IMG/VR virus record: IMGVR_UViG_3300048930_001392
Location: 1-52,450 of that record
DNA length: 52,450 bases
Source of the DNA: a virus
Lineage: Duplodnaviria > Caudoviricetes
Strand: one strand, 5' to 3'
Made by a program: the position numbers and the translations under genes. A model generated the notes under the pieces. The model was not told where the DNA came from, did no database searches, and was given only the letters and a program-made list of their open reading frames with translations. Below are positions 136-50,545 of the stretch, in pieces. The stretch's first letter is position 1. Each line of letters begins with the position of its first letter.

Positions 136-536
136 ACCTGCCACGGGCTTGCTTCCATTTTTACATAATATGCATTCCCTTCCGGGTTAATTCCTTGGGA
201 GCTTGGTATATCAGCCTTTGCTGTACCCGGTAGGGTCATACCAATTGCGCATAACAACATTGCTGCACTAGCCGCTAACTTCCGTGCTAGTGCTGTCCAG
301 GCTCGTCCAGCCGCTCCGTCTGATCGGACCGCTTTGATTGCTACTAACCACTGTGCCGGGTCTTCTCCGGCCATCGTTGCCATTTGGGCTATTAGCTCCT
401 CATCGGGGTAGGCGTCTTCTTTACGCCATTGGCTAACTACCTGCCTAGATCGTCCTAGGCGTTCTGCTAGGGCCGTGTCCGTCGTTAGGTGCTGGGCTTC
501 TTTGGCCCGATCCATCAACGCCTGTAAAACACTCAT
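102..536 (-). CDS. Inovirus repressor (Xre/Cro-type HTH, DUF3693-like), read through the att core
   Basis: HTH 'TDTALAERLGRSRQVVSQWR' with SD GGAG upstream on the minus strand. Residues AYYV are encoded by the att core; the last 19 aa come from host-side DNA. Confidence 0.8.
   Translation of the reverse strand: MSVLQALMDRAKEAQHLTTDTALAERLGRSRQVVSQWRKEDAYPDEELIAQMATMAGEDPAQWLVAIKAVRSDGAAGRAWTALARKLAASAAMLLCAIGMTLPGTAKADIPSSQGINPEGNAYYVKMEASPWQVQALETCPIAR
158..185 (-). other. Left attachment junction: XerD-type arm plus dif spacer, with a non-dif XerC-side arm
   Basis: Minus strand reads CCGGAAGGGAA-TGCATA-TTATGTAAAAA. It shares TTTACATAATATGCATT (17 bp, 160-176) with 50520-50536. Confidence 0.85.
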
Positions 537-604
537 GTCCGACTCCTACTTGACAACATGTCCGACAATAGGTTGTCATACACCTGTCCGACAAACATCG
601 GACA
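536..604. promoter_or_regulatory. Inovirus divergent control region with operator-like repeats
   Basis: TGTCCGAC at 536-543, 559-566 and 585-592, with an inverted near-copy at 597-604. TTGACA at 550-555. Inverted repeat TGACAAC (551-557) / GTTGTCA (572-578). Confidence 0.65.
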
Positions 605-660
605 CCCGGGTCCGCTGCCCTAGGCGGGTCGCCCGGGTTTTCTAGGGCTAGGGCAGGGGG
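604..660. other. GC-rich multi-hairpin element (candidate ssDNA origin or packaging signal)
   Basis: ACCCGGG...CCCGGGT and CTGCCCTAG...CTAGGGCAG inverted repeats in the intergenic region. Function inferred from position only. Confidence 0.4.
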
Positions 661-667
661 TAATTCC

Positions 668-1003
668 ATGAATCACCTATTCAACCTCTGGGTCATCGGT
701 CTCGTACTGTTCTTACTGTATTGGCTTGACCGCTTTGTCTCTGCTGTTATTTCTTACCGTCAAAACCGACACGCCTCCCGCTTACGCGCATTGGCGTTCA
801 TGTCGGAAGTTCGCTTCGCTCACGCTTACGGCTTACCTCCTTTCCAGCAATCCAACGTTGCAGCCCTTCGGCAACTCGATTTGGATTCGCCCTTCGCTTA
901 CTGCCGTCCCCCAGGTACTCCATCGGGCTCTCACCGGGTAATGCCCTGTGCACAGGTGATTCAGATGCCGGGTCATCCCGATGGAGTGCCTTCTAATGCT
1001 TAA
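668..1003 (+). CDS. Inovirus hypothetical protein with N-terminal TM segment
   Basis: G-rich SD, ATG start, hydrophobic N-terminus; first gene of the rightward operon. Confidence 0.5.
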   Translation: MNHLFNLWVIGLVLFLLYWLDRFVSAVISYRQNRHASRLRALAFMSEVRFAHAYGLPPFQQSNVAALRQLDLDSPFAYCRPPGTPSGSHRVMPCAQVIQMPGHPDGVPSNA

Positions 1004-1163
1004 GGTCAATCTCTGGCTCCTTGCGTGGTTCGTTCCCTTGTGGCTCCTGCGTTCAGTTGAACCGGGTCTAGGTCGTTGGGCTCTCTGCCTCATCGTCGTC
1101 TATGCCTTCGTTCAATGGCTAGTTGCCTTGGTCGTCCTCGTTCGTAGTGGGGTGGGCAAATGA
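981..1163 (+). CDS. Small inovirus membrane protein (start may be ATG 996)
   Basis: Two hydrophobic segments; its stop overlaps the next start (ATGA). Confidence 0.5.
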   Translation: MECLLMLKVNLWLLAWFVPLWLLRSVEPGLGRWALCLIVVYAFVQWLVALVVLVRSGVGK

Positions 1164-1399
1164 CAACGCCTAGCAATCCTGAGCGATTGACCTTCGAGGA
1201 TTACCTCGGTCGTGCTTTTGTCTACGCCGTGGGTACTGCCATTGTTATCGCAACCGCATCAGTTGCTTCTTTCTTAGCTCTGTTCGTTATCAGTAAAGCG
1301 CATTGCGAGTTCAGGCCAGAGTCGCAGCGTTGCATTGCCATAGAAGCTCGAGCCGCTGCTCGTGAGGCTCGTGGTGTCAATTCAGGGCTCTATCCATGA
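1160..1399 (+). CDS. Small inovirus membrane protein
   Basis: ATGA-coupled at both ends; one TM segment. Confidence 0.55.
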   Translation: MTTPSNPERLTFEDYLGRAFVYAVGTAIVIATASVASFLALFVISKAHCEFRPESQRCIAIEARAAAREARGVNSGLYP

Positions 1400-1593
1400 G
1401 CCCGGTCGTCTGTGAAGACTGTGATGACCCTGTGGTGCCCACGGTGACCGGCTGGTATCGATGCCGCATGTGTGGCTATGAATCGCTGCGTGCGCCTGTT
1501 CCGCGTCCTTCTAGCGGCCTCGATTCCTACATAGATTCACAGCTTGGAAGCGCCGCAGGCGCTGGGCTTGTCTCTTTATTCGATAAGTCATAA
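1396..1593 (+). CDS. Small zinc-ribbon-like protein
   Basis: CEDC...CRMC motif; ATGA-coupled start; its 3' part overlaps the putative origin. Confidence 0.45.
   Translation: MSPVVCEDCDDPVVPTVTGWYRCRMCGYESLRAPVPRPSSGLDSYIDSQLGSAAGAGLVSLFDKS
1549..1590 (+). other. Candidate plus-strand (double-strand) origin hairpins
   Basis: GCGCC-GCA-GGCGC hairpin followed by GCTTGTC-N9-GATAAGT, immediately upstream of rep. Confidence 0.5.
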
Positions 1594-1598
1594 GCCAT

Positions 1599-2435
1599 AT
1601 GCAAATTTCTACAGGCCAAATGAAGCAGACACGTATCGTGAAGATGCAGAAGGGTGTTATCGCCGCTGGTCGTGCTTTGGATAACAAAGCTCGTGAGCTT
1701 TACGGTGAACCTCGTTTCATTCCCCAGGGCAAGAAAGGGGCAGGGGAGTACTCCAAAGCTTCTCCGTACCGTGCCGCGCTTATCACGCTCACCTATGCCC
1801 CCGGTGTTGATTGGCAACCTGACCACATTGCCAAACTACTTACCCACTATCGCAACTGGTTTAAGCGCAATGCGAAGGGTCATCCGTTCCTGTACGTCTG
1901 GACGGTAGAGCTACAGCAACGCGGCATTCCGCATTACCACATCGTTGTATGGCTTCCCCGTGGTGTTGTTCCGCCATTGCCTGACTCCCAAGGCTGGTGG
2001 CCGCACGGCAAAACCAATGCCATCTATGCCCGTTCTCCGGTTGGCTACATCGCCAAATACGCCAGCAAAGGTGAAAACCAATCTGGTCATCACTTGCCTC
2101 CACGCTGCCGCCTCTGGGGCCACGGTGGTCTAACGATGGTCGAACGTGGGGAAATTGCATTCGCTACCTGTCCACGCTGGCTCAAGGGCGTTATTCACCA
2201 TGAAGCGCACCCCATCAAGAAAAGTGTCGAAGTGCTTACTACCTTGGCCTCCGGAAAGGTCGAAGTTATCAAGCGAGCTGCATGGGTGCTTAAAGCTGGC
2301 TTGGCCGCTGGATGGGCCTTCTTCTCTCCTTTTGACTTCGACGGTTTTTCAGAATCAGGAATCACGCTACGCCATCTCGGCGTGATTGAGGCCCTGACTC
2401 CCGATGGCGATTCCTTTCTCATCGCACATTCCTAA
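1599..2435 (+). CDS. rep: Rolling-circle replication initiator (HUH endonuclease)
   Basis: Motif I ITLTY, motif II PHYHIVVW, motif III YIAKYASK. Confidence 0.9.
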   Translation: MQISTGQMKQTRIVKMQKGVIAAGRALDNKARELYGEPRFIPQGKKGAGEYSKASPYRAALITLTYAPGVDWQPDHIAKLLTHYRNWFKRNAKGHPFLYVWTVELQQRGIPHYHIVVWLPRGVVPPLPDSQGWWPHGKTNAIYARSPVGYIAKYASKGENQSGHHLPPRCRLWGHGGLTMVERGEIAFATCPRWLKGVIHHEAHPIKKSVEVLTTLASGKVEVIKRAAWVLKAGLAAGWAFFSPFDFDGFSESGITLRHLGVIEALTPDGDSFLIAHS

Positions 2436-2447
2436 ATAGGGCTATTT

Positions 2448-2750
2448 ATGCAGCTTCTCATCGAAATTTTTTCCAATTCCACTCGGACCATCAAGGGCAA
2501 GAAAAAGGACGGTACACCGTTCGAAATGCAGAAGCAGGAAGGCTACTGGCACGCCGGCAAGGCTTACCCGGACCGCTTTGAATTCACGCCTCCGCGTGAC
2601 TTGCCGAACGGCTATCCGCCTGGGCGCTATGAAGTCGCGTTGGAGTCGTTCCGCATCAACGGCGAATACCAGTCGTTCGAAATGGACCCCTACAACTTCA
2701 AGCTGCTCAAGCTTGCCGATGAACCTGCCAAGGTTGCGAAGGTCGGCTAA
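2448..2750 (+). CDS. ssDNA-binding protein (pV-like)
   Basis: About 100 aa directly after rep; 'GKKKDGTPFEM..Q...YPPGRY' G5P-type pattern. Confidence 0.8.
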   Translation: MQLLIEIFSNSTRTIKGKKKDGTPFEMQKQEGYWHAGKAYPDRFEFTPPRDLPNGYPPGRYEVALESFRINGEYQSFEMDPYNFKLLKLADEPAKVAKVG

Positions 2751-2941
2751 TGCGTCAACTCGCTTGCATCGCATGGGATGAGGTTACAGACACCTGTACG
2801 ACGCAGGCGTGGGTAGAACATCCGTCAATTCTCCCCCCTTTGACGGATGCGGAACGGGACCAATTGGTTGTAGAGATAGCTACGTTGTGGGCTATCGCTT
2901 TCTGCCTCCGGTTGGTCTTCCGTTTCATTTGGAGGGGGTAA
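2750..2941 (+). CDS. Minor coat protein (pVII/pIX-like)
   Basis: C-x8-C N-terminus and C-terminal TM segment; lies between gV and pVIII. Confidence 0.65.
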   Translation: MRQLACIAWDEVTDTCTTQAWVEHPSILPPLTDAERDQLVVEIATLWAIAFCLRLVFRFIWRG

Positions 2942-2965
2942 CAGCCTCAAACATGGGAGAACATC

Positions 2966-3091
2966 ATGACCGAGGTAATTGCTGACATCGCTGCTGTCGG
3001 CCCCACGCTGGAAGCAATCGGCGGTGCGGTCATCGGCTTGGCGGTGATTGCCCTCACCTTCAAGTGGGCAAAGGGCATGGTGCTTTCCTAA
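2966..3091 (+). CDS. Major coat protein pVIII, 41 aa, no signal peptide
   Basis: Missing from the ORF track. SD GGAGA 2956-2960. MTEVIADIAAVGPTLEAIGGAVIGLAVIALTFKWAKGMVLS* has an acidic N-terminus, one TM helix and a basic C-terminus, and is followed by a terminator. Confidence 0.9.
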   Translation: MTEVIADIAAVGPTLEAIGGAVIGLAVIALTFKWAKGMVLS

Positions 3092-3110
3092 TAGGGAAAG
3101 TGCCGTTTCC

Positions 3111-3140
3111 GCCCCCGGTCATGTGGCCGGGGGTTTTCTT
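3111..3140 (+). terminator. Rho-independent terminator after the coat gene
   Basis: GCCCCCGGTC-ATGT-GGCCGGGGGT stem followed by a T-rich tract. Confidence 0.85.
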
Positions 3141-3156
3141 CTTTCCGGGGTATCTC

Positions 3157-3219
3157 ATGGAAAATTATTTCTACGTGGTCGGTGTGCTGGGGGCGTTATG
3201 GATTTTGTTCGCGCCGTGA
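3157..3219 (+). CDS. 20-aa hydrophobic minor coat peptide (pIX-like)
   Basis: MENYFYVVGVLGALWILFAP*, with GGGG SD; overlaps the pIII start. Not in the ORF track. Confidence 0.55.
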   Translation: MENYFYVVGVLGALWILFAP

Positions 3220-4580
3220 TTGCATCCGTCATTCGTGCGCTATGTATAGGGCTTATCCTGTACGCCGTTGCAGCGTATTCGCCGAACGCGCTCGCGCAAA
3301 CTGGTACCTGTCCGCCCACAGATTCACCAGCTACACGTCCCTGTGACCAAGGGCAAGCTAAATCAGCCGCCACTTCGTGGTCGGGCGCAGCAGCTAAATG
3401 CCAGGCGATAACCGGCCCCGGTCATCCCTACAATGTCATTGCTCCAACACATTCCCAGAATTCAGCGCAAGACGGTTATTACGTTGCTAATGCGCAATGT
3501 ATGTACAACGGCAGCGTTGCTTCTACCGTTTCATCATTTCCAACGGTTTACTATTACGGTTCAACGTGCCTCACAGGGCAGTACCGTTCCGGCCTCTCGG
3601 ATAGCTTCAACTACATAGGCTCGCTTCCTGAATGTCTAGACGGTTGCAAGGTCACCTATGGCCCTCGCGTAGAGACAACATTCAATGGGTCTACCGCCAT
3701 AAGCGGTACGGGTCGCGCGTATACCGGCGACGTGTGTCCCACAACGTCTCCTCCATCGCCCACCAAGCAAGAGGCCACGCAACCGCCAGAGGACGTATGT
3801 TCACCGGCCGGTAACGGCCAGACGATGTGCGTTAAGCCTAGTGGCGAGCATTGCTCAACATCTGCGCGTGGCAATCAATTTTGCTGGTCTCCTAATGAGA
3901 CAGGCACTAAAACAAATGAAGAGGCTGCACAGAAAAAAGACGTGACGGGTAAGCCTGTAACTCCTCCCAATGTTTCGATACCCAATGACAAGGAATGGAA
4001 TAGGGAAGAGGGTCATCAAGCTACCGCTTGCGTCAATTCGACCTGTACCACGTACAACATCTCCAACTTTACTCAGGTACCGCGTGGCTCCGGTAATGAT
4101 GGTGGGGACGGTACTGAAGAGGAATCGTCCGAAGGTGCAGAAGATGGTGAAGAGCATGACGGCTACGGTAACGGGGCTGTTAACTGCGATGTTCCGCCGC
4201 AGTGCTCTAGCAAAAGCGACGCTATCGGTTGCGCGATGCTCAAACAACATTTCAACCTTACCTGTAGGGAAGGTGATGATGATTATTCCGGCGTTCCGGA
4301 TGGCATAGCAGATGCAGACATAGAAAAGCCCGTATCTGGAATCTTCCAAGCGGGTGAGGGTGGTAATGGCGGTGAGTATGGTGATGTAGACATGTCTGGT
4401 TGGGCTGGCACCGGTGCATGTCCTGTAGTGCTTTCCTTCACCATCCCTCGGTTTGGTACGTACACCATGGACGGAGAGTGGATATGCCACGTCCTTGACG
4501 TATTACGGGCTCTTATCAATGTCCTCGCTGGCATACACGCCGGTTTCATCATCGCAAGCGGTTTTAGGAAAGGAGGTTAA
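3198..4580 (+). CDS. Adsorption protein pIII
   Basis: Signal peptide ending ALA-Q, Cys-rich N-terminal domains, Gly/acidic linker, C-terminal CP..C and TM anchor. Start placed at ATG 3198 because 3048 overlaps pVIII and the terminator. Confidence 0.85.
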   Translation: MDFVRAVIASVIRALCIGLILYAVAAYSPNALAQTGTCPPTDSPATRPCDQGQAKSAATSWSGAAAKCQAITGPGHPYNVIAPTHSQNSAQDGYYVANAQCMYNGSVASTVSSFPTVYYYGSTCLTGQYRSGLSDSFNYIGSLPECLDGCKVTYGPRVETTFNGSTAISGTGRAYTGDVCPTTSPPSPTKQEATQPPEDVCSPAGNGQTMCVKPSGEHCSTSARGNQFCWSPNETGTKTNEEAAQKKDVTGKPVTPPNVSIPNDKEWNREEGHQATACVNSTCTTYNISNFTQVPRGSGNDGGDGTEEESSEGAEDGEEHDGYGNGAVNCDVPPQCSSKSDAIGCAMLKQHFNLTCREGDDDYSGVPDGIADADIEKPVSGIFQAGEGGNGGEYGDVDMSGWAGTGACPVVLSFTIPRFGTYTMDGEWICHVLDVLRALINVLAGIHAGFIIASGFRKGG

Positions 4581-4582
4581 CG

Positions 4583-4915
4583 ATGCCAGGTCCACTCGCT
4601 GCGCTAGGTCTTGCCGCCTTTTGGACTGGCCTTACGCTCGTCATAAAGAACAGTTTCAAGTATGCAGTTTCTAAAGCGCCTGCATGGTTTGCACATGTTC
4701 TTGGCGCGTTGGGTTTGTACTATTTCGTCGCAGAACCGCTTACAGAGTTCGGCCTTGAATGGGTCAAGGGACAATTCGATGGTCTATCTGGTACCGTGGC
4801 TGAAACGGTCTATTACCTCGATGTAGATAACTACATCAGTGCCGTTTTTTCTGCTTATGCAGTTCGTGCCGCTAGTGGTGCCGCTAAAGCTGCTGTACTC
4901 GCCAAAAAACCATAA
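4583..4915 (+). CDS. Minor coat protein pVI (DUF2523-like)
   Basis: About 110 aa, hydrophobic, between pIII and Zot; strong SD AGGAGG. Confidence 0.8.
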   Translation: MPGPLAALGLAAFWTGLTLVIKNSFKYAVSKAPAWFAHVLGALGLYYFVAEPLTEFGLEWVKGQFDGLSGTVAETVYYLDVDNYISAVFSAYAVRAASGAAKAAVLAKKP

Positions 4916-4936
4916 AAATAATTTCTAGGGCGCAAC

Positions 4937-6124
4937 ATGCTTACTCTCATCCTCGCGCAACCGCGCACGGGTAAATCACAGCTTGCTGTTAAGTTCGGTC
5001 TCCAACATATAAAGGAGGGCAAGCGTGTATTCGTTACCAATTTCAACCAGACAGAGGAACAGCGTCTAAAGTCCGGTTTCGAGCGTTATGACACGCCTCA
5101 AGAATGGTGGGGGCCAGACGGTACAGAATTCGCTCCTGCCCATCCTGAGTGGCAAAACCCGCTTCCGCATGGCTCGGTTTGGATAATCGACGAAGCCCAG
5201 GACATATTTCCCCAACGCGGTAAAGACAGACAGCTCCCTGACTTTATCAAGCTGTTTTCCAAGCACGGTCATCATGACCTCACCATCTACATACTCACGC
5301 AAGATGCATCCCAGCTAGACGTGCATCTTCGCCGCAATACCAATTTAACGCTGCACATGACGCGCCCGCTCATGATGCGGAAAGCGAATATCTACACGTT
5401 CCGCGGCTATCAAGAAATGCCGAACGATGCTTGGCGCCGTAGCCAAGTCTGGAAGTCTGCTGAAACTAAAACCACGTTCAAATACAGCAAGAAATATCAG
5501 GACCTCTATGTTTCCGCATCTGCGCATGAATCTATCAAGCTGCGATTTCCGCCCAAGCTTTTATTCCTTCCTGTTCTTCTTGGGCTTGTCGTTTGGCTTT
5601 TGTATTTCAGTTATTCACGCCTCATGGGTGGTGATGAGGTAACAACCCCTATTGAGGCAGCCGCGTCGTTGGCAACCGGCGCGGTAGCGCCTGCCGACGC
5701 GGCCTCCGCTTCCACCAATACCGCAGGCAACAACAAGCGAACGCTAACAACAGAGGAATACCTCGCTCAATGGAAACCCCGTGTTCCCGGGGTTCCTAAC
5801 TCGGCTCCTGCTTATGATGGTTTTGAGGTGCAGGACTATCCCCGTCCTTACTGCATCATTTCAGGCAATCCCACGACTGGGGATTGCTCTTGCTACACCC
5901 AACAAGCTACCTATCTCGACATTCCCGATGATGATTGCCGCCGCTATGTGAAGGGTGGGGTATGGGACCCTTACCGTAAGCCCTCATCCGCTCCCCAGAA
6001 TGAAGGGAACACTGCTGCATCAGCCGATGCGTCTAGCACTGGCTCTGTGGTTATTCCTAATGCCGTCAATGGGTCCCAGACCTTCCCCGAGTCTCCCCAC
6101 TACGTCCCCGGTGATGGGGGGTAG
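4937..6124 (+). CDS. zot: Zot-family assembly ATPase pI
   Basis: Walker A AQPRTGKS, Walker B IIDEAQ, one TM segment and a periplasmic CxCYTQQ motif. Confidence 0.92.
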   Translation: MLTLILAQPRTGKSQLAVKFGLQHIKEGKRVFVTNFNQTEEQRLKSGFERYDTPQEWWGPDGTEFAPAHPEWQNPLPHGSVWIIDEAQDIFPQRGKDRQLPDFIKLFSKHGHHDLTIYILTQDASQLDVHLRRNTNLTLHMTRPLMMRKANIYTFRGYQEMPNDAWRRSQVWKSAETKTTFKYSKKYQDLYVSASAHESIKLRFPPKLLFLPVLLGLVVWLLYFSYSRLMGGDEVTTPIEAAASLATGAVAPADAASASTNTAGNNKRTLTTEEYLAQWKPRVPGVPNSAPAYDGFEVQDYPRPYCIISGNPTTGDCSCYTQQATYLDIPDDDCRRYVKGGVWDPYRKPSSAPQNEGNTAASADASSTGSVVIPNAVNGSQTFPESPHYVPGDGG

Positions 6125-6137
6125 GGCTATGCCCTAC
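6121..6137. other. Hairpin between zot and the convergent DUF3653 gene
   Basis: GTAGGGC-TAT-GCCCTAC perfect stem. Confidence 0.5.
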
Positions 6138-6146
6138 GGTGACGCC

Positions 6147-6565: not shown

Positions 6566-6569
6566 GCCA

Positions 6570-6593: not shown

Positions 6594-6610
6594 CCGAACA
6601 GGGGTATTCG

Positions 6611-44762: not shown

Positions 44763-44772
44763 GGGGCGCGCC

Positions 44773-45036: not shown

Positions 45037-45449
45037 ACATGAATCTGATCGCAGGGTTGTTCGTCGTGGGTGTAGTTGTGCTGGCTGTACTGGTGGGCGT
45101 TTGGCAGGCCAACCGGCGCGAACATCCGCTGACGGTGTTGCAGCGTGCTGAACGCGCCGAAGCCAACGGCCTGGAGTTGTGGCGAGTGGCCCAGCAGATG
45201 CGCGCCAGCGCGCTGGAGGAACAACGCACGTCACGGCGTGACCAGTTGTTGTTGTGGGCACGCCAGTGCGAGCGCGCCGCCACCGATCACCTGGCGTGCA
45301 TCAATGCCATATCGATGGACTCGCTGCACGCCGTTGGCCTGAAGGAACCCGTGCACCTGGGCGACTTCAAAGGTAGCGGCAACCGCCGCCGCAATCCGGG
45401 GCCGATGGCGATGTCGCGCATCCTGTTGCGGGGTGGTCGCCGTGGGTAA
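45033..45449 (+). CDS. Membrane-anchored hypothetical protein
   Basis: N-terminal TM segment; ATGA-coupled. Confidence 0.55.
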   Translation: MNMNLIAGLFVVGVVVLAVLVGVWQANRREHPLTVLQRAERAEANGLELWRVAQQMRASALEEQRTSRRDQLLLWARQCERAATDHLACINAISMDSLHAVGLKEPVHLGDFKGSGNRRRNPGPMAMSRILLRGGRRG

Positions 45450-46053
45450 CGCCTTCCGCATGTGGTTGTTCCATTGGCTGGTGGCCCACGTGGCTGGCAA
45501 GCGCCCGCCGAACTTCGTGGTGGGTGCGGATGATCCGGGCGGGGCGTACCTGCGCCGCTGGTATCTGACGCCGTGGCGCGGCTGGTACCAGGGCGTCGAC
45601 GAAGCCGAGCGCACACGCTGGCAGCGCTTCGTGGTGGCCGCCACCAAGCGCCTGCTGCCCAACCTGTACCTGCACCACTTCCTGCGCGACGACGACGACC
45701 GTGCCTTGCACGATCACCCGTCCGCCGGCTTCAGTTTCATCCTGTACGGCGGTTACATCGAACACACCATCGCCGCCGGCGGCATCCACAAGCGCGAGGA
45801 ATTCGCACCCGGTCGCATCCGTTTCATGCGGGCCACGCATGCGCACCGGATCGAGTTGTACAAGTCGGGCGAGTTCGTCAGCGAGGATGGCGGTATCACC
45901 AGCAGCCACATCATGCGTCCCTGTTGGACGCTGTTCCTGTTCCTGCCCACGTTCCGCCGCTGGGGCTTCCACTGCCAGCACAAGGGCTGGGTGCCCTACG
46001 AAGAGTTCACCGCCGCCGGCAAGCCTGGTGAAGTGGGGAAGGGGTGCGCGTGA
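45442..46053 (+). CDS. Cupin-like phage protein
   Basis: YLRRWY, NLYLHHFLRDDDDRALHDHP, GGYIE, HRIEL and RRWGF motifs. Confidence 0.7.
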   Translation: MGNAFRMWLFHWLVAHVAGKRPPNFVVGADDPGGAYLRRWYLTPWRGWYQGVDEAERTRWQRFVVAATKRLLPNLYLHHFLRDDDDRALHDHPSAGFSFILYGGYIEHTIAAGGIHKREEFAPGRIRFMRATHAHRIELYKSGEFVSEDGGITSSHIMRPCWTLFLFLPTFRRWGFHCQHKGWVPYEEFTAAGKPGEVGKGCA

Positions 46054-46307
46054 TGGGCCAAGCCAAGAACCGCGGCACCTTTGCCGAGCGCGTTGAACAG
46101 TCACGCAAGCGCGCAGAACTGGAAGCGTCCGCCAACCTGCTGGCCAAGCAGGCATCAGAACACGCGCGGGCTCAAAGACTCGCCGAACTTCCGCCCGAAG
46201 CGCGCAATCGGGTGATGGTGCGCAATCGCACCACGAACCTGCGCATCGCGTCATTGCTAGGCCTGGTCCTAGCACTGCAGTCCGCTGAACATCGAATCAG
46301 GAAATAA
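46053..46307 (+). CDS. Hypothetical protein
   Basis: MGQAKNRGTFAER start; TGATG-coupled. Confidence 0.55.
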   Translation: MGQAKNRGTFAERVEQSRKRAELEASANLLAKQASEHARAQRLAELPPEARNRVMVRNRTTNLRIASLLGLVLALQSAEHRIRK

Positions 46308-46309
46308 CC

Positions 46310-46570
46310 ATGACGACCCTAAAGGCGTTTCAAGTTGACGATTGCACATGGTATGCCGCCGAAACGGCGGAACAGGCGGCGCAGGTTTACAAATCCGACA
46401 CGGGCGAGGACTGCGACGACGAATATCCAACCGAAGTTTCTGACGCGGAACTGGACGCCCCCATCCCCGAATTCGATGAGAACGAAGAGCGCACCGGCGA
46501 CATGACCACCATGCGTGCATTTCTGGAAGAAGCGACCGCGCCCGGATTCCTTGCCACGTCGGAGTTCTGA
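46310..46570 (+). CDS. Acidic hypothetical protein
   Basis: SD AGGA; 'WYAAETAEQA' pattern. Confidence 0.6.
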   Translation: MTTLKAFQVDDCTWYAAETAEQAAQVYKSDTGEDCDDEYPTEVSDAELDAPIPEFDENEERTGDMTTMRAFLEEATAPGFLATSEF

Positions 46571-46573
46571 CCG

Positions 46574-46786
46574 ATGAACCTGCGCGATCTTCGACTATGG
46601 CACTGGCGCATCGCCATGCGCGAGCGCCAGGCAGCGCAGGACAATCGCTGTTCCGATTACACGAGGAAGGTGCATGACCGCACGGCGAACTTCCACATCA
46701 AGGCCGTGCAGGCATTGAACGATGTGGTGTCCGGGACTGCCGAGATGGATGACGCGCCAGGCCGTTCATTGGAGAAAGCCAAGTGA
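46574..46786 (+). CDS. Hypothetical protein
   Basis: SD GGAG; GTGA-coupled to the next gene. Confidence 0.55.
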   Translation: MNLRDLRLWHWRIAMRERQAAQDNRCSDYTRKVHDRTANFHIKAVQALNDVVSGTAEMDDAPGRSLEKAK

Positions 46787-47079
46787 CCGACACCAAGAAC
46801 GTCTGCCCCGCATGCGGCTGCGAAACCAACGACCACTGGTGTTGTGGCATACACCTGACGGCACCGTTCCGCATGACCAAAAACAAGGTGATCGCGCTGC
46901 GCAGCTACGCGCACGGCCGCAAAGGGCTGGATGAAGCCACCTACAAACTGCACCTGCAGGCCGTAGGCGTCACCAGCACCCTGCACCTGACCCGCGAAAG
47001 CCACAACGCCCTGCTGCGCCGCCTGGGCAAGTTGCCCGACCGACCACGCCAACCAAAGCAGGGGAGGGCGCACGCATGA
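46783..47079 (+). CDS. GemA / Mu gp16 (DUF1018)-like protein with N-terminal Cys cluster
   Basis: 'KGLDEATYKLHLQAVGVTSTLHLT..HNALL..L' resembles GemA 'GLDDDTYR..L...GK.S...LT'. Confidence 0.55.
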   Translation: MTDTKNVCPACGCETNDHWCCGIHLTAPFRMTKNKVIALRSYAHGRKGLDEATYKLHLQAVGVTSTLHLTRESHNALLRRLGKLPDRPRQPKQGRAHA

Positions 47080-47219
47080 AGGTCGCCGACGCCCGCCACA
47101 AAAAATACGCGCCACTGCATCCACTGGTGGCATCCCTGATGCGTCGCCTCCGCTTCAGCCTGGCCGAAGCCACCGCAGCCATGCAACTGATCTCTTCGAG
47201 GAAACTGAAATGCAACTGA
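47076..47219 (+). CDS. 47-aa hypothetical peptide
   Basis: SD GGAGG and ATGA coupling; not in the ORF track. Confidence 0.4.
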   Translation: MKVADARHKKYAPLHPLVASLMRRLRFSLAEATAAMQLISSRKLKCN

Positions 47220-47413
47220 TATCAAAAGCAATTGTCGATGGTTCGCTGGAATCGTTATCCGAACAACTGACGCCGCAGTCCATTGTCCGCACGCTGCGCG
47301 ACGAAAGGGGCGAACCGAACACGGAAGGCAACCGACAGCAGCGCCGTGCCGCCGCCGCCATTGCCCGCGCCGATGCCAAGCGCATGCGCAAGGTGGCAGC
47401 ATGCGCACGATAG
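47210..47413 (+). CDS. Hypothetical protein
   Basis: SD GAGG; NRQQRRAA motif. Confidence 0.5.
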   Translation: MQLISKAIVDGSLESLSEQLTPQSIVRTLRDERGEPNTEGNRQQRRAAAAIARADAKRMRKVAACAR

Positions 47414-47640
47414 CCGCACTGTGGGAAAGCTATAACAAGGAAGTGGTGCCCGCCACGGCCAGCCCGATCCAGCGGCAGGAACTGCGCCGCGCGTTCTACG
47501 CAGGTGCCGGTTCCATGATGGGCCTGGTGTACGACCTGGGCGACGACAGCATCAGTGAGGATGCCGGCATCGCCGTCATGCAAGGCCTGGTCGATGAAGC
47601 GCACGCATTCAAGAATGCAGTGCTGGCGGGGCAGGCATGA
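47401..47640 (+). CDS. Hypothetical protein
   Basis: 'QRQELRRAFYAGA' is a recurrent phage pattern. Confidence 0.6.
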   Translation: MRTIAALWESYNKEVVPATASPIQRQELRRAFYAGAGSMMGLVYDLGDDSISEDAGIAVMQGLVDEAHAFKNAVLAGQA

Positions 47641-48578
47641 CTTTGGATGCCATCAACCCGTTTGAAGGCTTGGATGCCATCGACCTGTTCGCAGGCCTGG
47701 GCGGCTTCAGCGAAGGCGCGGAACAGGCCGGGTGCAGCGTCGTGTGGGCGGGCAATCACTGGCGTGCGGCGGTGGATACACACATCGCCAACCACCCCGA
47801 CACCCAGCATGCCTGCCAGGACTTGCATCAAGCCGATTGGGCTGCGGTGCCGGCGCATGATCTGCTGCTGGCGTCACCGGCATGCCAGGGCCACACCCGT
47901 GCACGCGGCAAGGAACGGCCACACCACGACGCCACACGCAGCACGGCGTGGGCGGTGGTGTCCGCGCTTGAATACCACCGGCCGCGACTGGGCTTGATTG
48001 AAAACGTGCCCGAGTTCACCAAGTGGACGCTGTTCCCGGCGTGGTGTGCAGCGGTGCGGGCGTTGGGCTATTCGATCGCGCCGCACATCGTGGATGCCGC
48101 CGACTTCGGCGTGCCGCAACACCGCGTGCGCGTGTTCATCGCGTTGACGCGCAGCAAGCACCCCATCACCTTGGCCTTGCCGAAGCGCGAGCATGTCGCC
48201 GTGTCCAGCATTCTGGACTTCAGCGCGGGCGCGTGGTCGCAGATCCACAAGCCCGGCCGTTCGCCGGCCACGCTGGCGCGCATCGAACAAGGCCGGCGCG
48301 TGCATGGCGCACGCTTCCTGACTGCCTATTACGGCAACGAAAAAGGCGGGCGCAGCATCGCGCGACCCGTTGGCACCATCACCACCCGCGACCGCTGGGC
48401 CGTGATCGACGGCGATCGCATGCGCATGTTGAACGTGGCCGAATGCCGCCGGGCGATGGGCTTCCGTTCCACCTATCAATTGCCCGACCGGGCCAAGGAC
48501 GCCATGCACATGCTTGGCAACGCCGTGTGCCCACCTGTCGCCGCCACCGTCATCACCGCACTGAAGGATGCAGCATGA
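47637..48578 (+). CDS. Orphan C5-cytosine DNA methyltransferase
   Basis: DLFAGLGG, SPACQ, ENV, GVPQHRVR and LGNAV motifs. Confidence 0.92.
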   Translation: MTLDAINPFEGLDAIDLFAGLGGFSEGAEQAGCSVVWAGNHWRAAVDTHIANHPDTQHACQDLHQADWAAVPAHDLLLASPACQGHTRARGKERPHHDATRSTAWAVVSALEYHRPRLGLIENVPEFTKWTLFPAWCAAVRALGYSIAPHIVDAADFGVPQHRVRVFIALTRSKHPITLALPKREHVAVSSILDFSAGAWSQIHKPGRSPATLARIEQGRRVHGARFLTAYYGNEKGGRSIARPVGTITTRDRWAVIDGDRMRMLNVAECRRAMGFRSTYQLPDRAKDAMHMLGNAVCPPVAATVITALKDAA

Positions 48579-48823
48579 TCATTGGACGCATTGCGGGAGC
48601 CACCCGCGAACTGGGAAAACCCGCGAACTGGAACGCCGATCGCGATGGTGAATGTGGATCGCTCGCCATCCTGGACGTAACCGCGGAGGGCGGGCACAAC
48701 GTGATGATGTCCGCGTGGTACCCCACGCCGGACGAAGTGGCGCGCATCGCTGCCGGTGAACCCGTTTACCTGTCGATCTGGGGTGTGATGCACCCGCCGG
48801 TCATGTTGTCGGTGGCGCCATGA
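48575..48823 (+). CDS. Conserved-type small phage protein
   Basis: 'LGKPANW...CGSL...SAWYPTPDE...HPPV'; ATGA-coupled. Confidence 0.6.
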   Translation: MIIGRIAGATRELGKPANWNADRDGECGSLAILDVTAEGGHNVMMSAWYPTPDEVARIAAGEPVYLSIWGVMHPPVMLSVAP

Positions 48824-49260
48824 GTCGCGGCCACCAGCTGTTTGTCGCCACCGGTCGCCTGGGCGCTGATCCCGTCACCAAGGCACCGCAAAGTGGCGGC
48901 GTGATCACTGAATTCCGGATCGCCTGCACCGAAGTGTGGAAGGGCAGGGACGGCACCAAGCACGAACACACCGAATGGATACGCGCCAAGCTGTTTGGCC
49001 GTGCCGCCGAGATTGCACAGCAGTACCTGGCCAAGGGTTCGCTGGTCACCATCGAAGGCAAGGTGCGCACCGAAAAATGGCAAGCATCCGACGGCAGCGA
49101 TCGGTACAGTCAATGGATATACGTCGATGAATTGCACATGCACGGCGGCAACCCACACGAAGCCACCAAACCCGAACACCAGGGCCGCCCGAAACAGGCG
49201 GATGACACCAACGCAGCACCCGTGGACAGCCAGTTCAATGACGACGATATCCCGTTCTAG
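48820..49260 (+). CDS. ssb: Single-stranded DNA-binding protein
   Basis: GRLGADP, EHTEW, YLAKGSLV.IEGK and a C-terminal DDDIPF. Confidence 0.93.
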   Translation: MSRGHQLFVATGRLGADPVTKAPQSGGVITEFRIACTEVWKGRDGTKHEHTEWIRAKLFGRAAEIAQQYLAKGSLVTIEGKVRTEKWQASDGSDRYSQWIYVDELHMHGGNPHEATKPEHQGRPKQADDTNAAPVDSQFNDDDIPF

Positions 49261-49495
49261 AACCATCATTCTGGGAGGCACGAAAGATCAGGCCCGGGCC
49301 TGCGCAATTCGACGCGGCATCAAGTCGGATGAATGGATCTACTGCGGTCGCAATGGCGATGTTTTCCGTGGGCGACGGTCGCCGCGCGTCATCACCACTG
49401 GAACATGGACGCAGCGCAGTGACTTGGTTGCGATTCAATACGCGATGCGGGCGGCAAACGTAAAGCCGGAGGATGTCACGAATGATCCGTTTTGA
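49238..49495 (+). CDS. Hypothetical last gene of the early operon
   Basis: Fills the gap between ssb and the convergent recombinase 3, overlapping both. Confidence 0.4.
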   Translation: MTTISRSRTIILGGTKDQARACAIRRGIKSDEWIYCGRNGDVFRGRRSPRVITTGTWTQRSDLVAIQYAMRAANVKPEDVTNDPF

Positions 49496-50432
49496 TTCGC
49501 GCGGCCCGCGGGTGATGGCCAACCGCGGTGCGCAGTTCCTTCAGATCCACAGCCACGTAATGCGCCGTGGTGCTGGCGTCCACGTGGCCCAGCAGCTGCG
49601 CCAGGTTCATCACGTTCACGCCGGCCTTGTTCAATTCGGTGGCGTAGCTGGCGCGCAGCATATGCGGGTAGTGGCCTCGCCACGGTCGACTGGTGGACGT
49701 GTGCGACAGGCGCGTGTAGCCGCAGGCCGTGCCCAGGGCCGCGCGGGCGTAGCGGTTCACAATGACCCACACGGAACGCCCGTCGCGCAGCGCCTTGCCG
49801 TGCTGTGTGACGAACAACGCGTTGCGCTTGCCGCAGCCACTGGTGGCGCGCACGGCCAGGTACTGGTCCAGCAGGGTGCGCCACTCGCCGCCGTAGGGCA
49901 CCAGGCGTTCCTTGTCGCCCTTGCCGCGCACCAGCAGGTAACCATCCAGCCGCACGCTGCCGAGTTCGAGCCCCGCCAGTTCGCTGGCACGCAGGCCGCA
50001 CTGGTACAGCGTGGCGATGATCACGTGGTCACGCAGGCCCACGAAGGTCGACAGATCCGGCGCCGCCAGCAGCATGCCGACTTCGACGTCGGTCAATGCC
50101 CGCACCAGGCGCCGGTGCAGTCGCATCTGCTTGGGGTATTGACCAGGCTGCCACATATGCGGAGCGGCGACGCGCAGCCACTTGAACCACGCTTTCAACC
50201 CGCTGACTTCCATGTTCATCGACGCCTGACCCACGCGGTCACGTCGAATGGCCAGGTAACGCAGCAGCGTGTCTGCATCACCGGTTCCGGTCTCGCCACA
50301 CGCCAGCAGCCACCGATCCACGACCGCGACGTAAGCCCGCACCGTGGCCGGCGACCTGCGCACCGCCTGCAGGTAGGTCTTGAAGCCTTCCCGTAGCGGG
50401 GCAGACACAACATAACCACGTATTAGCGTCAT
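49476..50432 (-). CDS. Tyrosine recombinase 3, XerC/XerD-like, next to att (probable integrase; start uncertain)
   Basis: SPATVRAY, CGLRASEL, GKGDKERLVP, PHMLR.SYAT.L and LLGH...TTAHY, plus the Xer-typical HHPRA near the C-terminus. Confidence 0.92.
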   Translation of the reverse strand: MTLIRGYVVSAPLREGFKTYLQAVRRSPATVRAYVAVVDRWLLACGETGTGDADTLLRYLAIRRDRVGQASMNMEVSGLKAWFKWLRVAAPHMWQPGQYPKQMRLHRRLVRALTDVEVGMLLAAPDLSTFVGLRDHVIIATLYQCGLRASELAGLELGSVRLDGYLLVRGKGDKERLVPYGGEWRTLLDQYLAVRATSGCGKRNALFVTQHGKALRDGRSVWVIVNRYARAALGTACGYTRLSHTSTSRPWRGHYPHMLRASYATELNKAGVNVMNLAQLLGHVDASTTAHYVAVDLKELRTAVGHHPRAARIKTDHS

Positions 50433-50464
50433 CAACAGAAATTCCAGTCCACAATCACGACTGG

Positions 50465-50490
50465 CAAACCATTGATAAATCAAACAGATG
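50465..50490. promoter_or_regulatory. Back-to-back IHF-like sites at the right prophage end
   Basis: CAAACCATTGATA (consensus, reverse orientation) and AATCAAACAGATG (near-match). Confidence 0.55.
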
Positions 50491-50517
50491 GGGCGCGTTA
50501 CCTGACTACCTGCCGAT

Positions 50518-50545
50518 TATTTACATAATATGCATTATGCGAAAT
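50518..50545 (-). other. dif: Complete chromosomal dif site (right attachment junction)
   Basis: Minus strand ATTTCGCATAA-TGCATA-TTATGTAAATA, compared with E. coli GGTGCGCATAA-TGTATA-TTATGTTAAAT. Confidence 0.92.

What the first reader, a model, noticed from the sequence alone, without database searches (positions are those of the whole stretch)
158..50545. Both phage attP sites keep the XerD-side inner bases but lack the XerC arm, which also suggests the order of arrival
Seen (minus strand): left CCGGAAGGGAA-TGCATA-TTATGTAAAAA; middle ATCTAAACTAC-TGCATA-TTATGTTCGGA; right ATTTCGCATAA-TGCATA-TTATGTAAATA. The rebuilt attPs therefore have TTATGT plus an identical spacer but no CGCATAA. Known: TLC and GGI sites are degenerate on the XerD side, and CTX/VGJ use XerC exchange. 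Inference: integration could use XerD-first exchange with replicative resolution, or a phage recombinase could bind the odd arm. The simplest history is that the inovirus integrated first and the tailed phage then entered the regenerated dif.
Basis: partly seen in the sequence, partly recalled or inferred. Interest (0 to 1): 0.8.

Follow-up and report, generated by a model that had tools for sequence, protein, structure and literature searches.

The report
Two prophages stacked in dif
A filamentous phage and a tailed phage sit one behind the other inside a sediment bacterium's chromosome-dimer resolution site (dif), each carrying only the XerD half of that site; the filamentous type is already in print, while the tailed phage belongs to a little-studied family with three Xer-like recombinases of its own.

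Summary
Three same-strand copies of TGCATATTATGT bound a 6.4-kb inovirus and a 44-kb siphovirus. The right site is a full Lysobacteraceae dif.

Both rebuilt attPs lack a XerC arm, but for different reasons. The inovirus has the "XerD-side" attP that I read in the published genomes of Cf2, phiSMA7 and phiSHP2. A paper on Cf2 is titled "XerD-dependent integration"; I saw only the title. This part is a new member of a known kind.

The tailed phage does not simply lack an arm. It carries a conserved phage-specific arm (TAArCyAm), the host spacer and a XerD-type arm, between two of three conserved Xer-like recombinase genes. The same layout occurs in all 5 genomes with an IntA homologue of at least 42% identity, in 9 of 11 IMG/VR loci and in one GenBank phage record that holds the intact attP. 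Four literature searches found no description of tailed phages that target dif with their own recombinases.

The order of arrival cannot be read from the sequence, because either order gives the same structure. Inovirus-first is favoured only on mechanistic grounds. This scan earlier noted integrase-less tailed prophages at dif on other DNA.

The parts
1..157 (+). Left chromosomal flank: the last 44 codons and stop of a host gene (1-135)
   Evidence: Homologues (50-72% identity over 38-42 aa) lie at the C-terminal end of open frames of 304-651 aa (17 of 18 matches 543-651 aa) in 17 of 81 relatives of G001. No dif lay beside them in the 6 loci inspected.
158..185 (-). Left site: inovirus odd arm CCGGAAGGGAA, spacer TGCATA, host XerD arm TTATGTAAAAA
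   Evidence: The XerD arm is of host type: 4 of 61 family dif sites carry exactly this arm. The empty-site contig continues from here into the right flank.
186..6537 (+). Inovirus prophage, 6.35 kb. No recombinase gene was found among the 9 ORFs scanned.
   Evidence: Pfam scans: CI-type/DUF3693 repressor 102-536(-), Rep G2P 1599-2435, ssDNA-binding protein 2448-2750, Zot/pI 4937-6124, DUF3653 6147-6452(-). Contig record 1 of X1 spans 133-6671 with no differences.
102..536 (-). Inovirus repressor (Phage_CI_repr + DUF3693). Its 3' end runs across the left att site.
   Evidence: phiLf-UK and Cf2 have the same layout, with attP inside the 3' part of the XRE/DUF3693 gene.
6147..6452 (-). DUF3653 protein (101 aa), PSB15/XafT-domain family, next to the XerD-like arm
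   Evidence: Pfam PF12375, 25.4 bits against a cut-off of 22.4. An ORF in the same position in 4 of 4 relatives tested also hits DUF3653. Alignment.
6538..6565 (-). Middle site: tailed-phage arm ATCTAAACTAC, spacer TGCATA, inovirus XerD-like arm TTATGTTCGGA
   Evidence: TTATGTTC is the inovirus-side arm in L132, L133, L135, L136, phiSMA7 and phiSHP2. TAArCyAm is the tailed-family arm.
6566..50517 (+). Tailed (siphovirus-type) prophage, 44 kb
   Evidence: Portal, tape measure and J-like tail fibre (PHROGs). RdgC, SSB, sliding-clamp-like protein, methylases and a serine resolvase at 37964-38713. tblastx coverage against G083, G403 and MACPNOA1 is 0.56, 0.49 and 0.36.
8849..10012 (+). IntC: Xer-like tyrosine recombinase on the odd-arm side of attP, transcribed away from it
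   Evidence: R-K-H-R-H-Y is intact in 5 of 5 family members. Forms its own clade with 100/100 support.
41610..42797 (+). IntB: third Xer-like recombinase, beside RdgC
   Evidence: Orthologues at the same place in G083, G403, MACPNOA1 and L157. The catalytic Lys is not at the aligned position in 4 of 5 members.
49476..50483 (-). IntA: Xer-like recombinase (SAM-like N-domain + catalytic domain). Its start lies 35 nt from the right site.
   Evidence: It scores 152 bits against XerC and 143 against XerD, both below the equivalog cut-offs. It is 35-38% identical to host XerD and 28-29% to XerC. Homologues lie next to dif in all 5 genomes with a match of at least 42% identity and in 9 of 11 IMG/VR loci.
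50518..50545 (-). Right site: complete dif (host XerC arm ATTTCGCATAA, spacer TGCATA, phage-supplied XerD arm TTATGTAAATA)
   Evidence: TTATGTAAATA is the commonest XerD arm among the family dif sites found (16 of 61).
50546..52450 (+). Right chromosomal flank
   Evidence: Homologous to the sequence beside dif in Luteimonas mephitis.

Best explanation
The window holds a two-element array inserted in the dif site of a Lysobacteraceae chromosome. The order is: host XerC arm, tailed phage, inovirus, host XerD arm.

Each phage carries an attP that copies the dif spacer and the XerD-side half but not the XerC arm. As a result the lysogen keeps exactly one complete dif, at the right end. The internal and left sites cannot be resolved against it by FtsK-driven XerCD, so the array is stable. 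This last step is inferred from the published logic for TLC and GGI.

The inovirus has no recombinase. It is a Cf2/phiSMA7/phiSHP2-type integrative element that depends on host Xer proteins. The reaction is most likely led by XerD, and XerC is either recruited only through protein contacts or dispensable.

The tailed phage belongs to a family of 40-46-kb temperate siphoviruses that target dif with phage-encoded Xer-like recombinases. attP lies between IntA (on the XerD-arm side) and IntC (on the side of the conserved arm TAArCyAm). I infer that IntC binds the phage-specific arm, and that IntA or host XerD binds the XerD-type arm.

Shown: the anatomy, the empty site, family-wide conservation of the arm and of the three recombinases, and intact attPs in unintegrated genomes. 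Inferred: which proteins bind and cleave where. The order of arrival is probably inovirus first (about 0.7), but it cannot be decided from sequence.
For: Sites and boundaries.

dif identity: 61 stretches from family genomes and the syntenic L. mephitis dif, which differs from the predicted empty site at 1 of 28 positions.

Empty site: found in a contig of run X1.

Inovirus: none of the 9 ORFs scanned is a recombinase. Relatives with 59-61% Rep identity show host XerC arm-spacer-TTATGTTCnnn at one end and an unrelated arm at the other. Free genomes of phiSMA7, phiSHP2 and Cf2 carry the same kind of attP, annotated as attP in Cf2.

Tailed phage, adjacency to dif: IntA homologues of 42-63% identity occur in 5 of 401 family genomes searched. 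All 5 have a dif-type site just upstream. Four of the 5 have exactly one further copy of the 12-nt core on the same strand. In 3 of them it lies 41-46 kb away; in G294 it is on another contig. One of these genomes, G339, is unpublished.

Tailed phage, the arm: next to the spacer it reads T-A-A-R-C/T-Y-A-M in 7 of the 8 members that were found through IntA and not through the motif. The eighth, L171, fits at 5 of these 8 positions.

Tailed phage, intact attP: present in KY697807 and L157, flanked by IntC and IntA.

Recombinases: IntA, IntB and IntC each form an orthologous clade of 5 rows (support 100/99 to 100/100), separate from XerC and XerD. IntC has all six catalytic residues in 5 of 5 members.

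IMG/VR: 9 of 11 IntA loci have the dif-type core 77-141 nt upstream.
Against: No experiment of any kind underlies this.

The host genome is not held, so the host's own XerC and XerD could not be examined.

The empty site rests on one contig, with only 12 letters beyond the branch point, from a run that may be the source sample.

The only studied DUF3653 protein of this phage group (PSB15 of phiLf-UK) binds the packaging signal, and its loss did not change integration (preprint passages). So the DUF3653 gene here is weak evidence for XerD activation.

IntA lacks catalytic residues in 2 of 5 members (L157: Arg-I and Lys; MACPNOA1: Lys), so it may not be the catalytic integrase everywhere.

Nothing shows which protein binds the odd arm.

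The Cf2 paper was not held. I know only its title and the GenBank annotation.

Supplements of Midonet 2019 (DUF3653 subclasses and their positions relative to dif) could not be seen and may already cover part of this.
Confidence: 0.7

Rival explanations
1. The tailed phage is a pure Xer-exploiting element. Host XerC/XerD do the integration, and the three phage recombinases serve other tasks such as genome dimer resolution or inversion.
For: attP carries a consensus XerD arm and the host spacer. IntA lacks catalytic residues in 2 of 5 members. Earlier notes of this scan report tailed prophages at dif with no integrase at all (unchecked here).
Against: The IntA gene abuts the att core in 5 of 5 genomes, in 9 of 11 IMG/VR loci and in KY697807. 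The arm that replaces the XerC arm is conserved across hosts with GC from 0.41 to 0.68, together with the recombinase trio. A host XerC site would be expected to follow host XerC arms instead.
Confidence: 0.12
2. One phage recombinase alone (IntA or IntC, as a homotetramer) carries out a conventional integrase reaction. The copied XerD arm is only there to rebuild dif after insertion, as tRNA-targeting phages carry the 3' end of the tRNA.
For: Rebuilding the target is a general need. The identity block is one-sided (spacer + XerD arm), as in tRNA-targeting phages (general knowledge). IntC is catalytically complete in 5 of 5 members.
Against: The two attP arms are not inverted repeats of each other: the MACPNOA1 arms match at 3 of 11 positions when compared by eye. 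A single protein would therefore have to bind three unlike arms. Both IntA and IntC flank attP divergently in every member examined.
Confidence: 0.25
3. The inovirus integrates by a TLC-phi-like route in which its DUF3653 protein activates XerD, as XafT does.
For: A DUF3653 ORF sits 86 nt from the XerD-like arm in the window, and at the same place in 4 of 4 relatives tested. Midonet 2019 reports DUF3653 proteins next to dif in all lysogenic phages of Xanthomonadales plant pathogens and proposes a shared role (passages).
Against: The relatives' proteins carry the LTG/WAGFxF/TPE motifs of PSB15. In phiLf-UK, PSB15 binds the packaging signal and is dispensable for integration. However, phiLf-UK has the opposite, XerC-arm type of attP. 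Unlike XafT, this protein has no fused HTH domain.
Confidence: 0.3
4. Reverse order of arrival: the tailed phage entered the virgin dif first, and the inovirus later entered the distal hybrid site (tailed-phage arm + spacer + host XerD arm).
For: Algebraically both orders give the observed structure. If integration of this inovirus type needs only XerD and a XerD arm, the distal site offers a perfect one (TTATGTAAAAA).
Against: That reaction would join two sites that both lack a XerC arm. In the Vibrio arrays, sequential integration is described at dif (passages). A complete dif (right site) would have been available as a competing target.
Confidence: 0.3
5. The repeats are chance, or the array is an assembly chimera.
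For: The window comes from a metagenome-derived provirus record.
Against: 0 of 100 shuffles gave 3 copies. A contig with no differences bridges left flank, inovirus, middle site and 106 nt of the tailed phage. The same architecture recurs in independent genomes.
Confidence: 0.02

Closest known systems
Xanthomonas phage Cf2 (MK512531), Stenotrophomonas phages phiSMA7 and phiSHP2
   Same: These are inoviruses with a minus-strand repressor (DUF3693/XRE) and a DUF3653 gene. Their attP is an unrelated arm + the dif spacer + TTATGT(C/T)... on the minus strand. They have no integrase. A paper on Cf2 is titled 'XerD-dependent integration' (title seen in reference lists).
   Different: Rep is only about 34% identical to the pII proteins of named Xanthomonas phages; Cf2 itself was not among the matches. 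The closest relatives, at 59-61%, are unnamed IMG/VR proviruses. The spacer is TGCATA, the Lysobacteraceae type, instead of TGTATA. The outer XerD arm is more degenerate relative to its host (7 of 11 positions).
Xanthomonas phages XacF1, Cf1c and phiLf(-UK)
   Same: Same gene module and same attP position (inside or next to the repressor gene, beside the DUF3653 gene). Integration at dif by host XerCD is reported (XacF1 paper passages).
   Different: Their attP is the mirror image: XerC arm + spacer conserved, XerD arm degenerate. They therefore insert in the opposite orientation relative to dif.
TLC-phi of Vibrio cholerae (XafT; TLC-type IMEX) and the gonococcal genetic island
   Same: Half-site mimicry of dif, with one degenerate arm that is thought to protect against FtsK-driven excision. 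TLC shows XerD-first exchange. TLC-phi carries a DUF3653 domain.
   Different: In those elements the degenerate arm is the XerD arm; here it is the XerC arm. XafT has a fused HTH domain, and the protein here does not.
'Microcystis phage MACPNOA1' (KY697807), the only named phage record of the tailed family found
   Same: 42.5-kb siphovirus with the same synteny, including the three recombinases, the serine recombinase, RdgC and SSB. It holds an intact attP ACCTAAGCCAC-TGTATA-TTATGTCAAAC between IntA and IntC.
   Different: IntA is 45% identical. GC is 0.68. No paper that I could search discusses its attachment site; the 3 papers that mention it were seen as a search listing only.
dif-targeting tailless (double jelly-roll) prophages of Vibrio
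   Same: Non-filamentous phages at dif. Some carry integrase genes, and whether host or phage enzymes act is stated to be unresolved (ISME J 2024 passages; Commun Biol 2025 passages).
   Different: Those are tailless phages of less than 16 kb. Here the phage is a 44-kb tailed one with three conserved Xer-like recombinases and a conserved phage-specific arm.

Membership tests
IMEX (integrative mobile element exploiting Xer): inovirus | Inserted in the chromosomal dif | tested here: met
   The empty site is seen.
IMEX: inovirus | No recombinase gene of its own | tested here: met
   Nine ORFs between 102 and 6452 were scanned with Pfam and none hits a recombinase family. Smaller ORFs were not scanned.
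IMEX: inovirus | Integration depends on host XerC/XerD | not testable with these tools
   Needs genetics. Reported for related Xanthomonas phages (Cf2 title only).
TLC-phi type IMEX | attP with a good XerC arm and central region and a degenerate XerD arm | tested here: not met
   It is the reverse here: the XerC-position arm CCGGAAGGGAA matches 2 of 11 positions, while the XerD-position arm matches 7 of 11.
TLC-phi type IMEX | XafT: HTH-XRE fused to DUF3653, which activates XerD | tested here: inconclusive
   DUF3653 is present, but there is no HTH domain on the same protein. The homologue PSB15 is dispensable for integration in phiLf-UK. XerD activation is untestable here.
Cf2/phiSMA7/phiSHP2-type (XerD-side attP) inoviruses | attP = unrelated arm + dif spacer + TTATGT-type arm, on the strand opposite to the structural genes, beside the repressor and DUF3653 genes | tested here: met
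   Window. Reference phages.
XerC / XerD proper (for IntA, IntB, IntC) | Score above the NCBIfam equivalog cut-off, and placement inside the XerC or XerD clade | tested here: not met
   Best scores are 152, 100 and 162 bits against cut-offs of 335 and 330. Each forms a separate clade.
Lambda-type phage integrase (for IntA) | N-terminal arm-type DNA-binding domain in addition to the core-binding and catalytic domains | tested here: not met
   Only Phage_int_SAM_1 (33-104) and Phage_integrase (130-313) are found in 335 aa. The definition of the family is recalled, not taken from a call.
dif-targeting siphovirus family with three Xer-like recombinases (defined here) | IntA gene within about 35-200 nt of a dif-type core, and attP = TAArCyAm arm + host-type spacer + XerD-type arm | tested here: met
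   Window. Also 5 of 5 genomes, 9 of 11 IMG/VR loci, KY697807 and L157.
dif-targeting siphovirus family with three Xer-like recombinases (defined here) | Orthologues of IntA, IntB and IntC all present at syntenic places | tested here: met
   Window, G083, G403, KY697807 and L157: 5 of 5 members for which enough sequence was available.
Recombinase-in-trio (RIT) elements | Three tyrosine recombinase genes adjacent in one operon (recalled definition) | tested here: not met
   The three genes lie at 8.8, 41.6 and 49.5 kb of the window.

The most novel reading that the evidence does not exclude
The tailed phage family encodes its own pair of Xer paralogues. IntC would bind the conserved phage arm and IntA the XerD-type arm. 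Together they would form a mixed synapse with host XerC/XerD bound to dif. The phage would thus plug into the chromosome-dimer resolution machinery while escaping FtsK control, and would hand the host back a consensus dif. This would be a new class of dif-targeting element, neither a classical integrase system nor an IMEX. It appears widespread in Gammaproteobacteria-type hosts: GC runs from 0.41 to 0.68, and the spacers and XerD arms follow the host's dif type.
Probability: 0.3. Interest if true: 0.85.

Novelty: new variant of a known kind. Interest (0 to 1): 0.6.

Why it matters
dif is the one site that nearly every circular bacterial chromosome must keep intact. The elements described as entering it are mostly small and non-tailed, and borrow host XerC/XerD.

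This locus gives three things. First, it is a natural case in which the empty site, a host-dependent filamentous phage and a tailed phage with its own recombinases can be compared at the same dif. Second, it shows that a whole family of 40-46-kb temperate siphoviruses targets dif. They use a conserved phage-specific arm and three co-inherited Xer-like recombinases. That makes the question [quoted passage not shown] testable with defined arms and proteins. Third, it shows that half-site mimicry exists in both polarities, XerC-side and XerD-side, even among closely related inovirus integration modules.

For annotation, such prophages are easily mis-bounded, and their recombinases are mislabelled XerC or XerD.

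Tried and rejected
- **CTX-type folded single-strand attP.** No inverted dif-like copy with 3 or fewer mismatches lies within 1 kb of attP; the only plus-orientation partial copies are at 4415 and 5809. The rebuilt attP region folds no better than shuffles (z -1.4 and -1.3; one search timed out). Rejected.
- **Inverted XerC-arm-like 11-mer at 244-254 (10 of 11).** It has no counterpart near the matching end in the relatives. Treated as chance.
- **Named close relatives of the inovirus.** Megablast against phages found no match. The exact rebuilt attP was not found in IMG/VR (0 stretches).
- **A conspecific host genome with an empty site.** None is held. The best flank matches are 69-83% identical.
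- **Left-flank synteny.** The 44-aa flank protein had no match in G001, G044, G038 or G031. It matched in 17 of 81 relatives, but none of the 6 loci inspected has dif beside it.
- **Odd distal XerD arms of G083 and G294 as remnants of an older element.** No window-inovirus protein matched, and no further dif-like site was found, within 11-15 kb downstream. The relatives' search hit only short conserved pieces. Left unexplained.
- **Inovirus DNA against 400 family genomes.** Only 3 weak partial matches.
- **Rfam on 50400-51200.** Nothing.
- **Earlier findings of this scan.** Nothing by place or by IntA sequence.
- **The Cf2 paper.** Not held.
- **Single-lysogen junctions in run X1.** No loose end was listed at the middle site, but 4 loose ends were not shown, and contigs drop rare variants. 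This is not evidence of absence.
- **Literature on tailed phages with their own recombinase at dif.** (noisy: 'dif' also matches 'difficile') found none.

Full report
**1. What is in the sequence**

The 12-mer TGCATATTATGT occurs exactly three times in the window, always on the minus strand, at 163-174, 6543-6554 and 50523-50534. The expected number is 0.11, and none of 100 shuffles gave three.

The sites sit at the borders of three compositional and genetic blocks:
- Block 186-6537 (GC 0.536) has inovirus genes: CI/DUF3693 repressor, G2P-type Rep, ssDNA-binding protein, Zot/pI and a DUF3653 protein.
- Block 6566-50517 (GC 0.635) has siphovirus genes: portal, tape measure, J-like fibre, RdgC, SSB and methylases.
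- Both outer flanks are chromosomal.

The window is an IMG/VR provirus record, and no host genome is held.

**2. The right site is the host's dif, and the predicted empty site exists**

A 24-nt stretch of the right site was found in 61 stretches of species-representative genomes, one match per stretch (two stretches come from one MAG). By record title most are Lysobacter, Pseudoxanthomonas, Thermomonas, Luteimonas or unnamed Lysobacteraceae. All read A/T/G-C/T/G-TTCGCATAA-TGCATA-TTATGTAAA-nn.
- The window's right XerD arm, TTATGTAAATA, is the commonest: 16 of 61. One search printed 17 because it also counted the window's own locus.
- The left XerD arm, TTATGTAAAAA, occurs in 4 of 61.

Only one of the 61 loci, from Luteimonas mephitis, shares flank homology with the window: 83% over 154 nt starting about 50 nt from dif, and 69% over 553 nt.

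The prediction was then met exactly. In the one run found, X1, a sediment metagenome kept as contigs that may be the source sample, one contig follows the left flank and core up to position 176. It then continues with 12 letters identical to window 50537-50548, which are the rest of the XerC arm plus the first three bases of the right flank. The summed depth over 1-400 is 165 against 46.9 over the inovirus. Depth of contigs is no measure of cell shares.

A second contig with no differences spans 133-6671. It bridges the left flank, the inovirus, the middle site and the start of the tailed phage, which argues against a chimera.

**3. The inovirus**

None of the nine ORFs scanned is a recombinase.

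*Relatives in IMG/VR.* Six proviruses with 59-61% Rep identity were found.
- L132, L133, L135 and L136 show host XerC arm-TGTATA-TTATGTTCnnn next to the DUF3653 end.
- L132, L134 and L135 show an unrelated arm (GAAGGGCGGTA, GAACGGCGGTA, CAGCCGCATTC) next to the repressor end.
- L135 is a tandem array.

*The DUF3653 gene.* An ORF of about 100 aa at the same place hits DUF3653 in the window and in 4 of 4 relatives tested.

*The attP class is already in sequenced, named phages.* I read these attPs from the circular genome records:
- phiSMA7: CAACGGCGGTA-TGTATA-TTATGTTCAAA
- phiSHP2: GAACGGCGGTA-TGTATA-TTATGTTCAAG
- Cf2: ...GTC-TGTATA-TTATGTCAAAG, annotated as attP in the record

[quoted passage not shown] It is not held, so I know only its title.

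*The mirror-image type.* XacF1 and phiLf-UK carry XerC arm + TGTATA + degenerate arm at the homologous place in the same gene module. One relative of the window's phage, L137, also has the XerC-arm type. The integration module therefore exists in two polarities within one phage group.

*Mechanism.* A CTX-type folded attP is not supported. A XerD-led host reaction is the best reading.

Whether the DUF3653 protein acts like XafT of TLC-phi is open.
- For: Midonet 2019 proposes a common Xer role for DUF3653 proteins found beside dif (passages).
- Against: the relatives' proteins carry the LTG/WAGFxF/TPE motifs of PSB15. A 2024 preprint reports that PSB15 binds the packaging signal and is dispensable for integration of phiLf-UK (passages).
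- Caveat: phiLf-UK has the XerC-arm type of attP.

**4. The tailed phage**

*The recombinases.* It carries three Xer-like tyrosine recombinases:
- IntC at 8849-10012, 2.3 kb from the middle site
- IntB at 41610-42797, beside RdgC
- IntA at 49476-50483, whose start lies 35 nt from the right site

All score best against XerC or XerD models but far below the equivalog cut-offs.

*IntA homologues in genomes.* IntA was searched in 401 family genomes.
- Five homologues of 42-63% identity were found.
- Twenty-two further matches at 36-42% identity are probably the hosts' own XerD. I did not check these one by one.
- All five genomes have a dif-type site directly upstream of the gene. Four have a TGYATA spacer and the fifth has a TGTCTA spacer.
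- Four of the five have exactly one further copy of the 12-nt core on the same strand. It lies 46.4, 41.3 and 41.9 kb away in three genomes, and on another contig in G294.
- One of these genomes, G339, is unpublished. It contributes one of the five cases and one arm sequence, which I do not quote. The conclusions hold without it.

*The distal sites carry a conserved arm, not random sequence.* The arms are:
- window: ATCTAAACTAC
- G294: ATCTAAATCAC
- G083: GCGTAAGCCAA
- G403: GTGTAAGCCAA
- G339: an arm that fits the same pattern

*Intact attPs in unintegrated genomes.* The only named phage record with a close IntA (45%) is KY697807, "Microcystis phage MACPNOA1". It has the same synteny and an intact attP ACCTAAGCCAC-TGTATA-TTATGTCAAAC between IntA and two genes followed by IntC. 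IMG/VR holds more:
- A scan with the degenerate motif found four contigs of 40-45 kb.
- An IntA-profile scan found 11 loci. Nine have the dif-type core 77-141 nt upstream of the IntA match. Six of those have a XerC-type arm, one is cut by the contig end, and two have the phage arm (free attP). One locus had only 57 nt upstream, and the most distant (35% identity) had none.
- Some of these loci are the two ends of the same contigs.

*How conserved the arm is.* I counted only the eight members found through IntA and not through the motif: window, G294, G339, G083, G403, KY697807, L171 and L173. Position by position the arm next to the spacer reads T (7/8), A (7/8), A (8/8), R (8/8), C (7/8), Y (7/8), A (8/8), M (8/8).

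*Breadth of hosts.* In L157 (GC 0.51) IntC and IntA flank the attP GCCTAAACCAA-TGTATA-TTATGTTAAAT divergently, and IntB lies 4 kb further on. The spacer and the XerD-type arm vary with the host. Spacers TGCATA, TGTATA, TGCCTA, TGTACA and TGTCTA were seen, while the phage arm stays the same.

*Relationships and catalytic residues.*
- IntA, IntB and IntC each form a clade of five orthologues (support 100/99, 100/100, 100/100), separate from host XerC and XerD.
- The window's IntA is 35-38% identical to host XerD and 28-29% to XerC; across the five family members the ranges are 28-40% and 27-32%. XerC and XerD are themselves about 37% identical. IntA is therefore a third Xer-type lineage, not a captured XerD.
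- IntC has the full R-K-H-R-H-Y set in 5 of 5 members.
- IntA has it in the window, G083 and G403. It lacks Arg-I and Lys in L157, and Lys in KY697807.
- IntB lacks Lys at the aligned position in 4 of 5 members; its Tyr is shifted by one residue.

*Reading.* This is a family of temperate siphoviruses that target dif with their own recombinases. attP consists of a recognition arm for a phage enzyme, the host spacer where exchange must occur, and a XerD-type arm. That arm rebuilds a complete dif next to the host XerC arm.

I infer that IntC binds the phage arm. It is always catalytically complete and lies on that side. I infer that IntA or host XerD binds the XerD-type arm. Whether host XerC/XerD on dif pair with the phage enzymes in one synapse is open.

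Four literature searches found no description of tailed phages at dif with their own recombinases. The nearest statement concerns tailless Vibrio prophages at dif that "regularly carried integrase genes", with the mechanism called inconclusive (passages). Notes of this scan report tailed prophages at dif elsewhere, but without integrases (not checked here).

**5. Why both attPs lack the XerC arm**

The two cases differ, but the consequence is shared. After each insertion only the site next to the host XerC arm is a complete dif. The other junction has no XerC arm. By the logic published for TLC-phi and the gonococcal island (passages), a prophage flanked by one dif and one defective site is not removed by FtsK-activated XerCD. 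This step is inferred, not shown.

In this window the tailed phage supplies the consensus XerD arm. The hybrid site left by the inovirus alone would carry TTATGTTCGGA, a poorer match.

**6. Order of arrival**

Write the host site as C|D, the inovirus attP as i|x and the tailed-phage attP as t|y.
- Inovirus first, then the tailed phage into C|x, gives C|y-tailed-t|x-inovirus-i|D.
- Tailed phage first, then the inovirus into t|D, gives the same string.

The junctions therefore cannot date the events. Inovirus-first needs only that each newcomer uses the site with a XerC arm, which is the established behaviour of Vibrio IMEX arrays (passages). The reverse order needs a reaction between two sites that both lack XerC arms while a complete dif is available. 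I put inovirus-first at about 0.7. No single-lysogen junction was listed in the contigs of X1, but contigs cannot show absence.

**7. Verdict**

The inovirus part is a new member of a published class. The tailed-phage part is a new variant, and it is the reason for the score.

**Limits.** There is no host genome, no raw reads and no experiment. One supporting genome is unpublished. The Cf2 paper and the supplements of Midonet 2019 were not seen.

Noticed in passing
L153 (KY697807.1), whole record: The record named 'Microcystis phage MACPNOA1' has GC 0.68, a dif-type attP with a TGTATA spacer, and synteny with prophages of Lysobacteraceae-type genomes. Its real host may be a heterotroph of the culture and not Microcystis.
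   Followed up: partly
window 50598-50751: A 154-nt non-coding stretch about 50 nt from dif is 83% identical to the stretch beside dif in Luteimonas mephitis. It has no Rfam match. A related short motif (CCAACAAGCG) abuts the XerC arm of dif in loci L004 and L029, and a one-mismatch variant abuts it in L060.
   Followed up: partly
window 6680-7567: One contig of run X1 (depth 12.9) joins 6680 to 7567. This is a variant of the tailed phage without most of the D12 adenine methylase gene (6611-7570).
   Followed up: no
window 157: A contig at depth 103.9 has one extra T behind 157. That lengthens the A/T run at the outer end of the host XerD arm and points to a second, more abundant strain or allele of the host locus.
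   Followed up: no
window 244-254 (+): An inverted 11-mer matches the host XerC arm at 10 of 11 positions. It lies inside the inovirus repressor gene about 70 nt from the left site. It is not conserved in the relatives.
   Followed up: yes
L137 116-132 and 5724-5751: An inovirus with 59% Rep identity to the window's phage has the opposite (XerC-arm) attP type. The integration modules of both polarities seem to be exchanged within one Rep lineage.
   Followed up: partly
L157 5973-6968; L153 39375-40265: The IntA orthologues of two family members lack catalytic residues (Arg-I and Lys; Lys). IntC is complete in all five. IntA may be a non-catalytic partner in part of the family.
   Followed up: partly
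L111 (G083), L110 (G294), L154: The distal XerD-position arms read TTATGTCAnnn, unlike the TTATGTAAA of the family's dif sites but like the Cf2 and MACPNOA1 attP arms. No further element or site was found within 11-15 kb downstream of the sites in G083 and G294; L154 was not examined.
   Followed up: partly
window 37964-38713 and 41610-42797: A small serine resolvase/invertase, and the third tyrosine recombinase (IntB) next to RdgC, are conserved in the family (annotated also in KY697807). Their roles are unknown.
   Followed up: no
L135 67-94 and 6693-6720: A tandem array of two different inoviruses at a TGTATA-type dif. The internal junction combines the arm of one phage with the TTATGTTC arm of the next.
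   Followed up: partly
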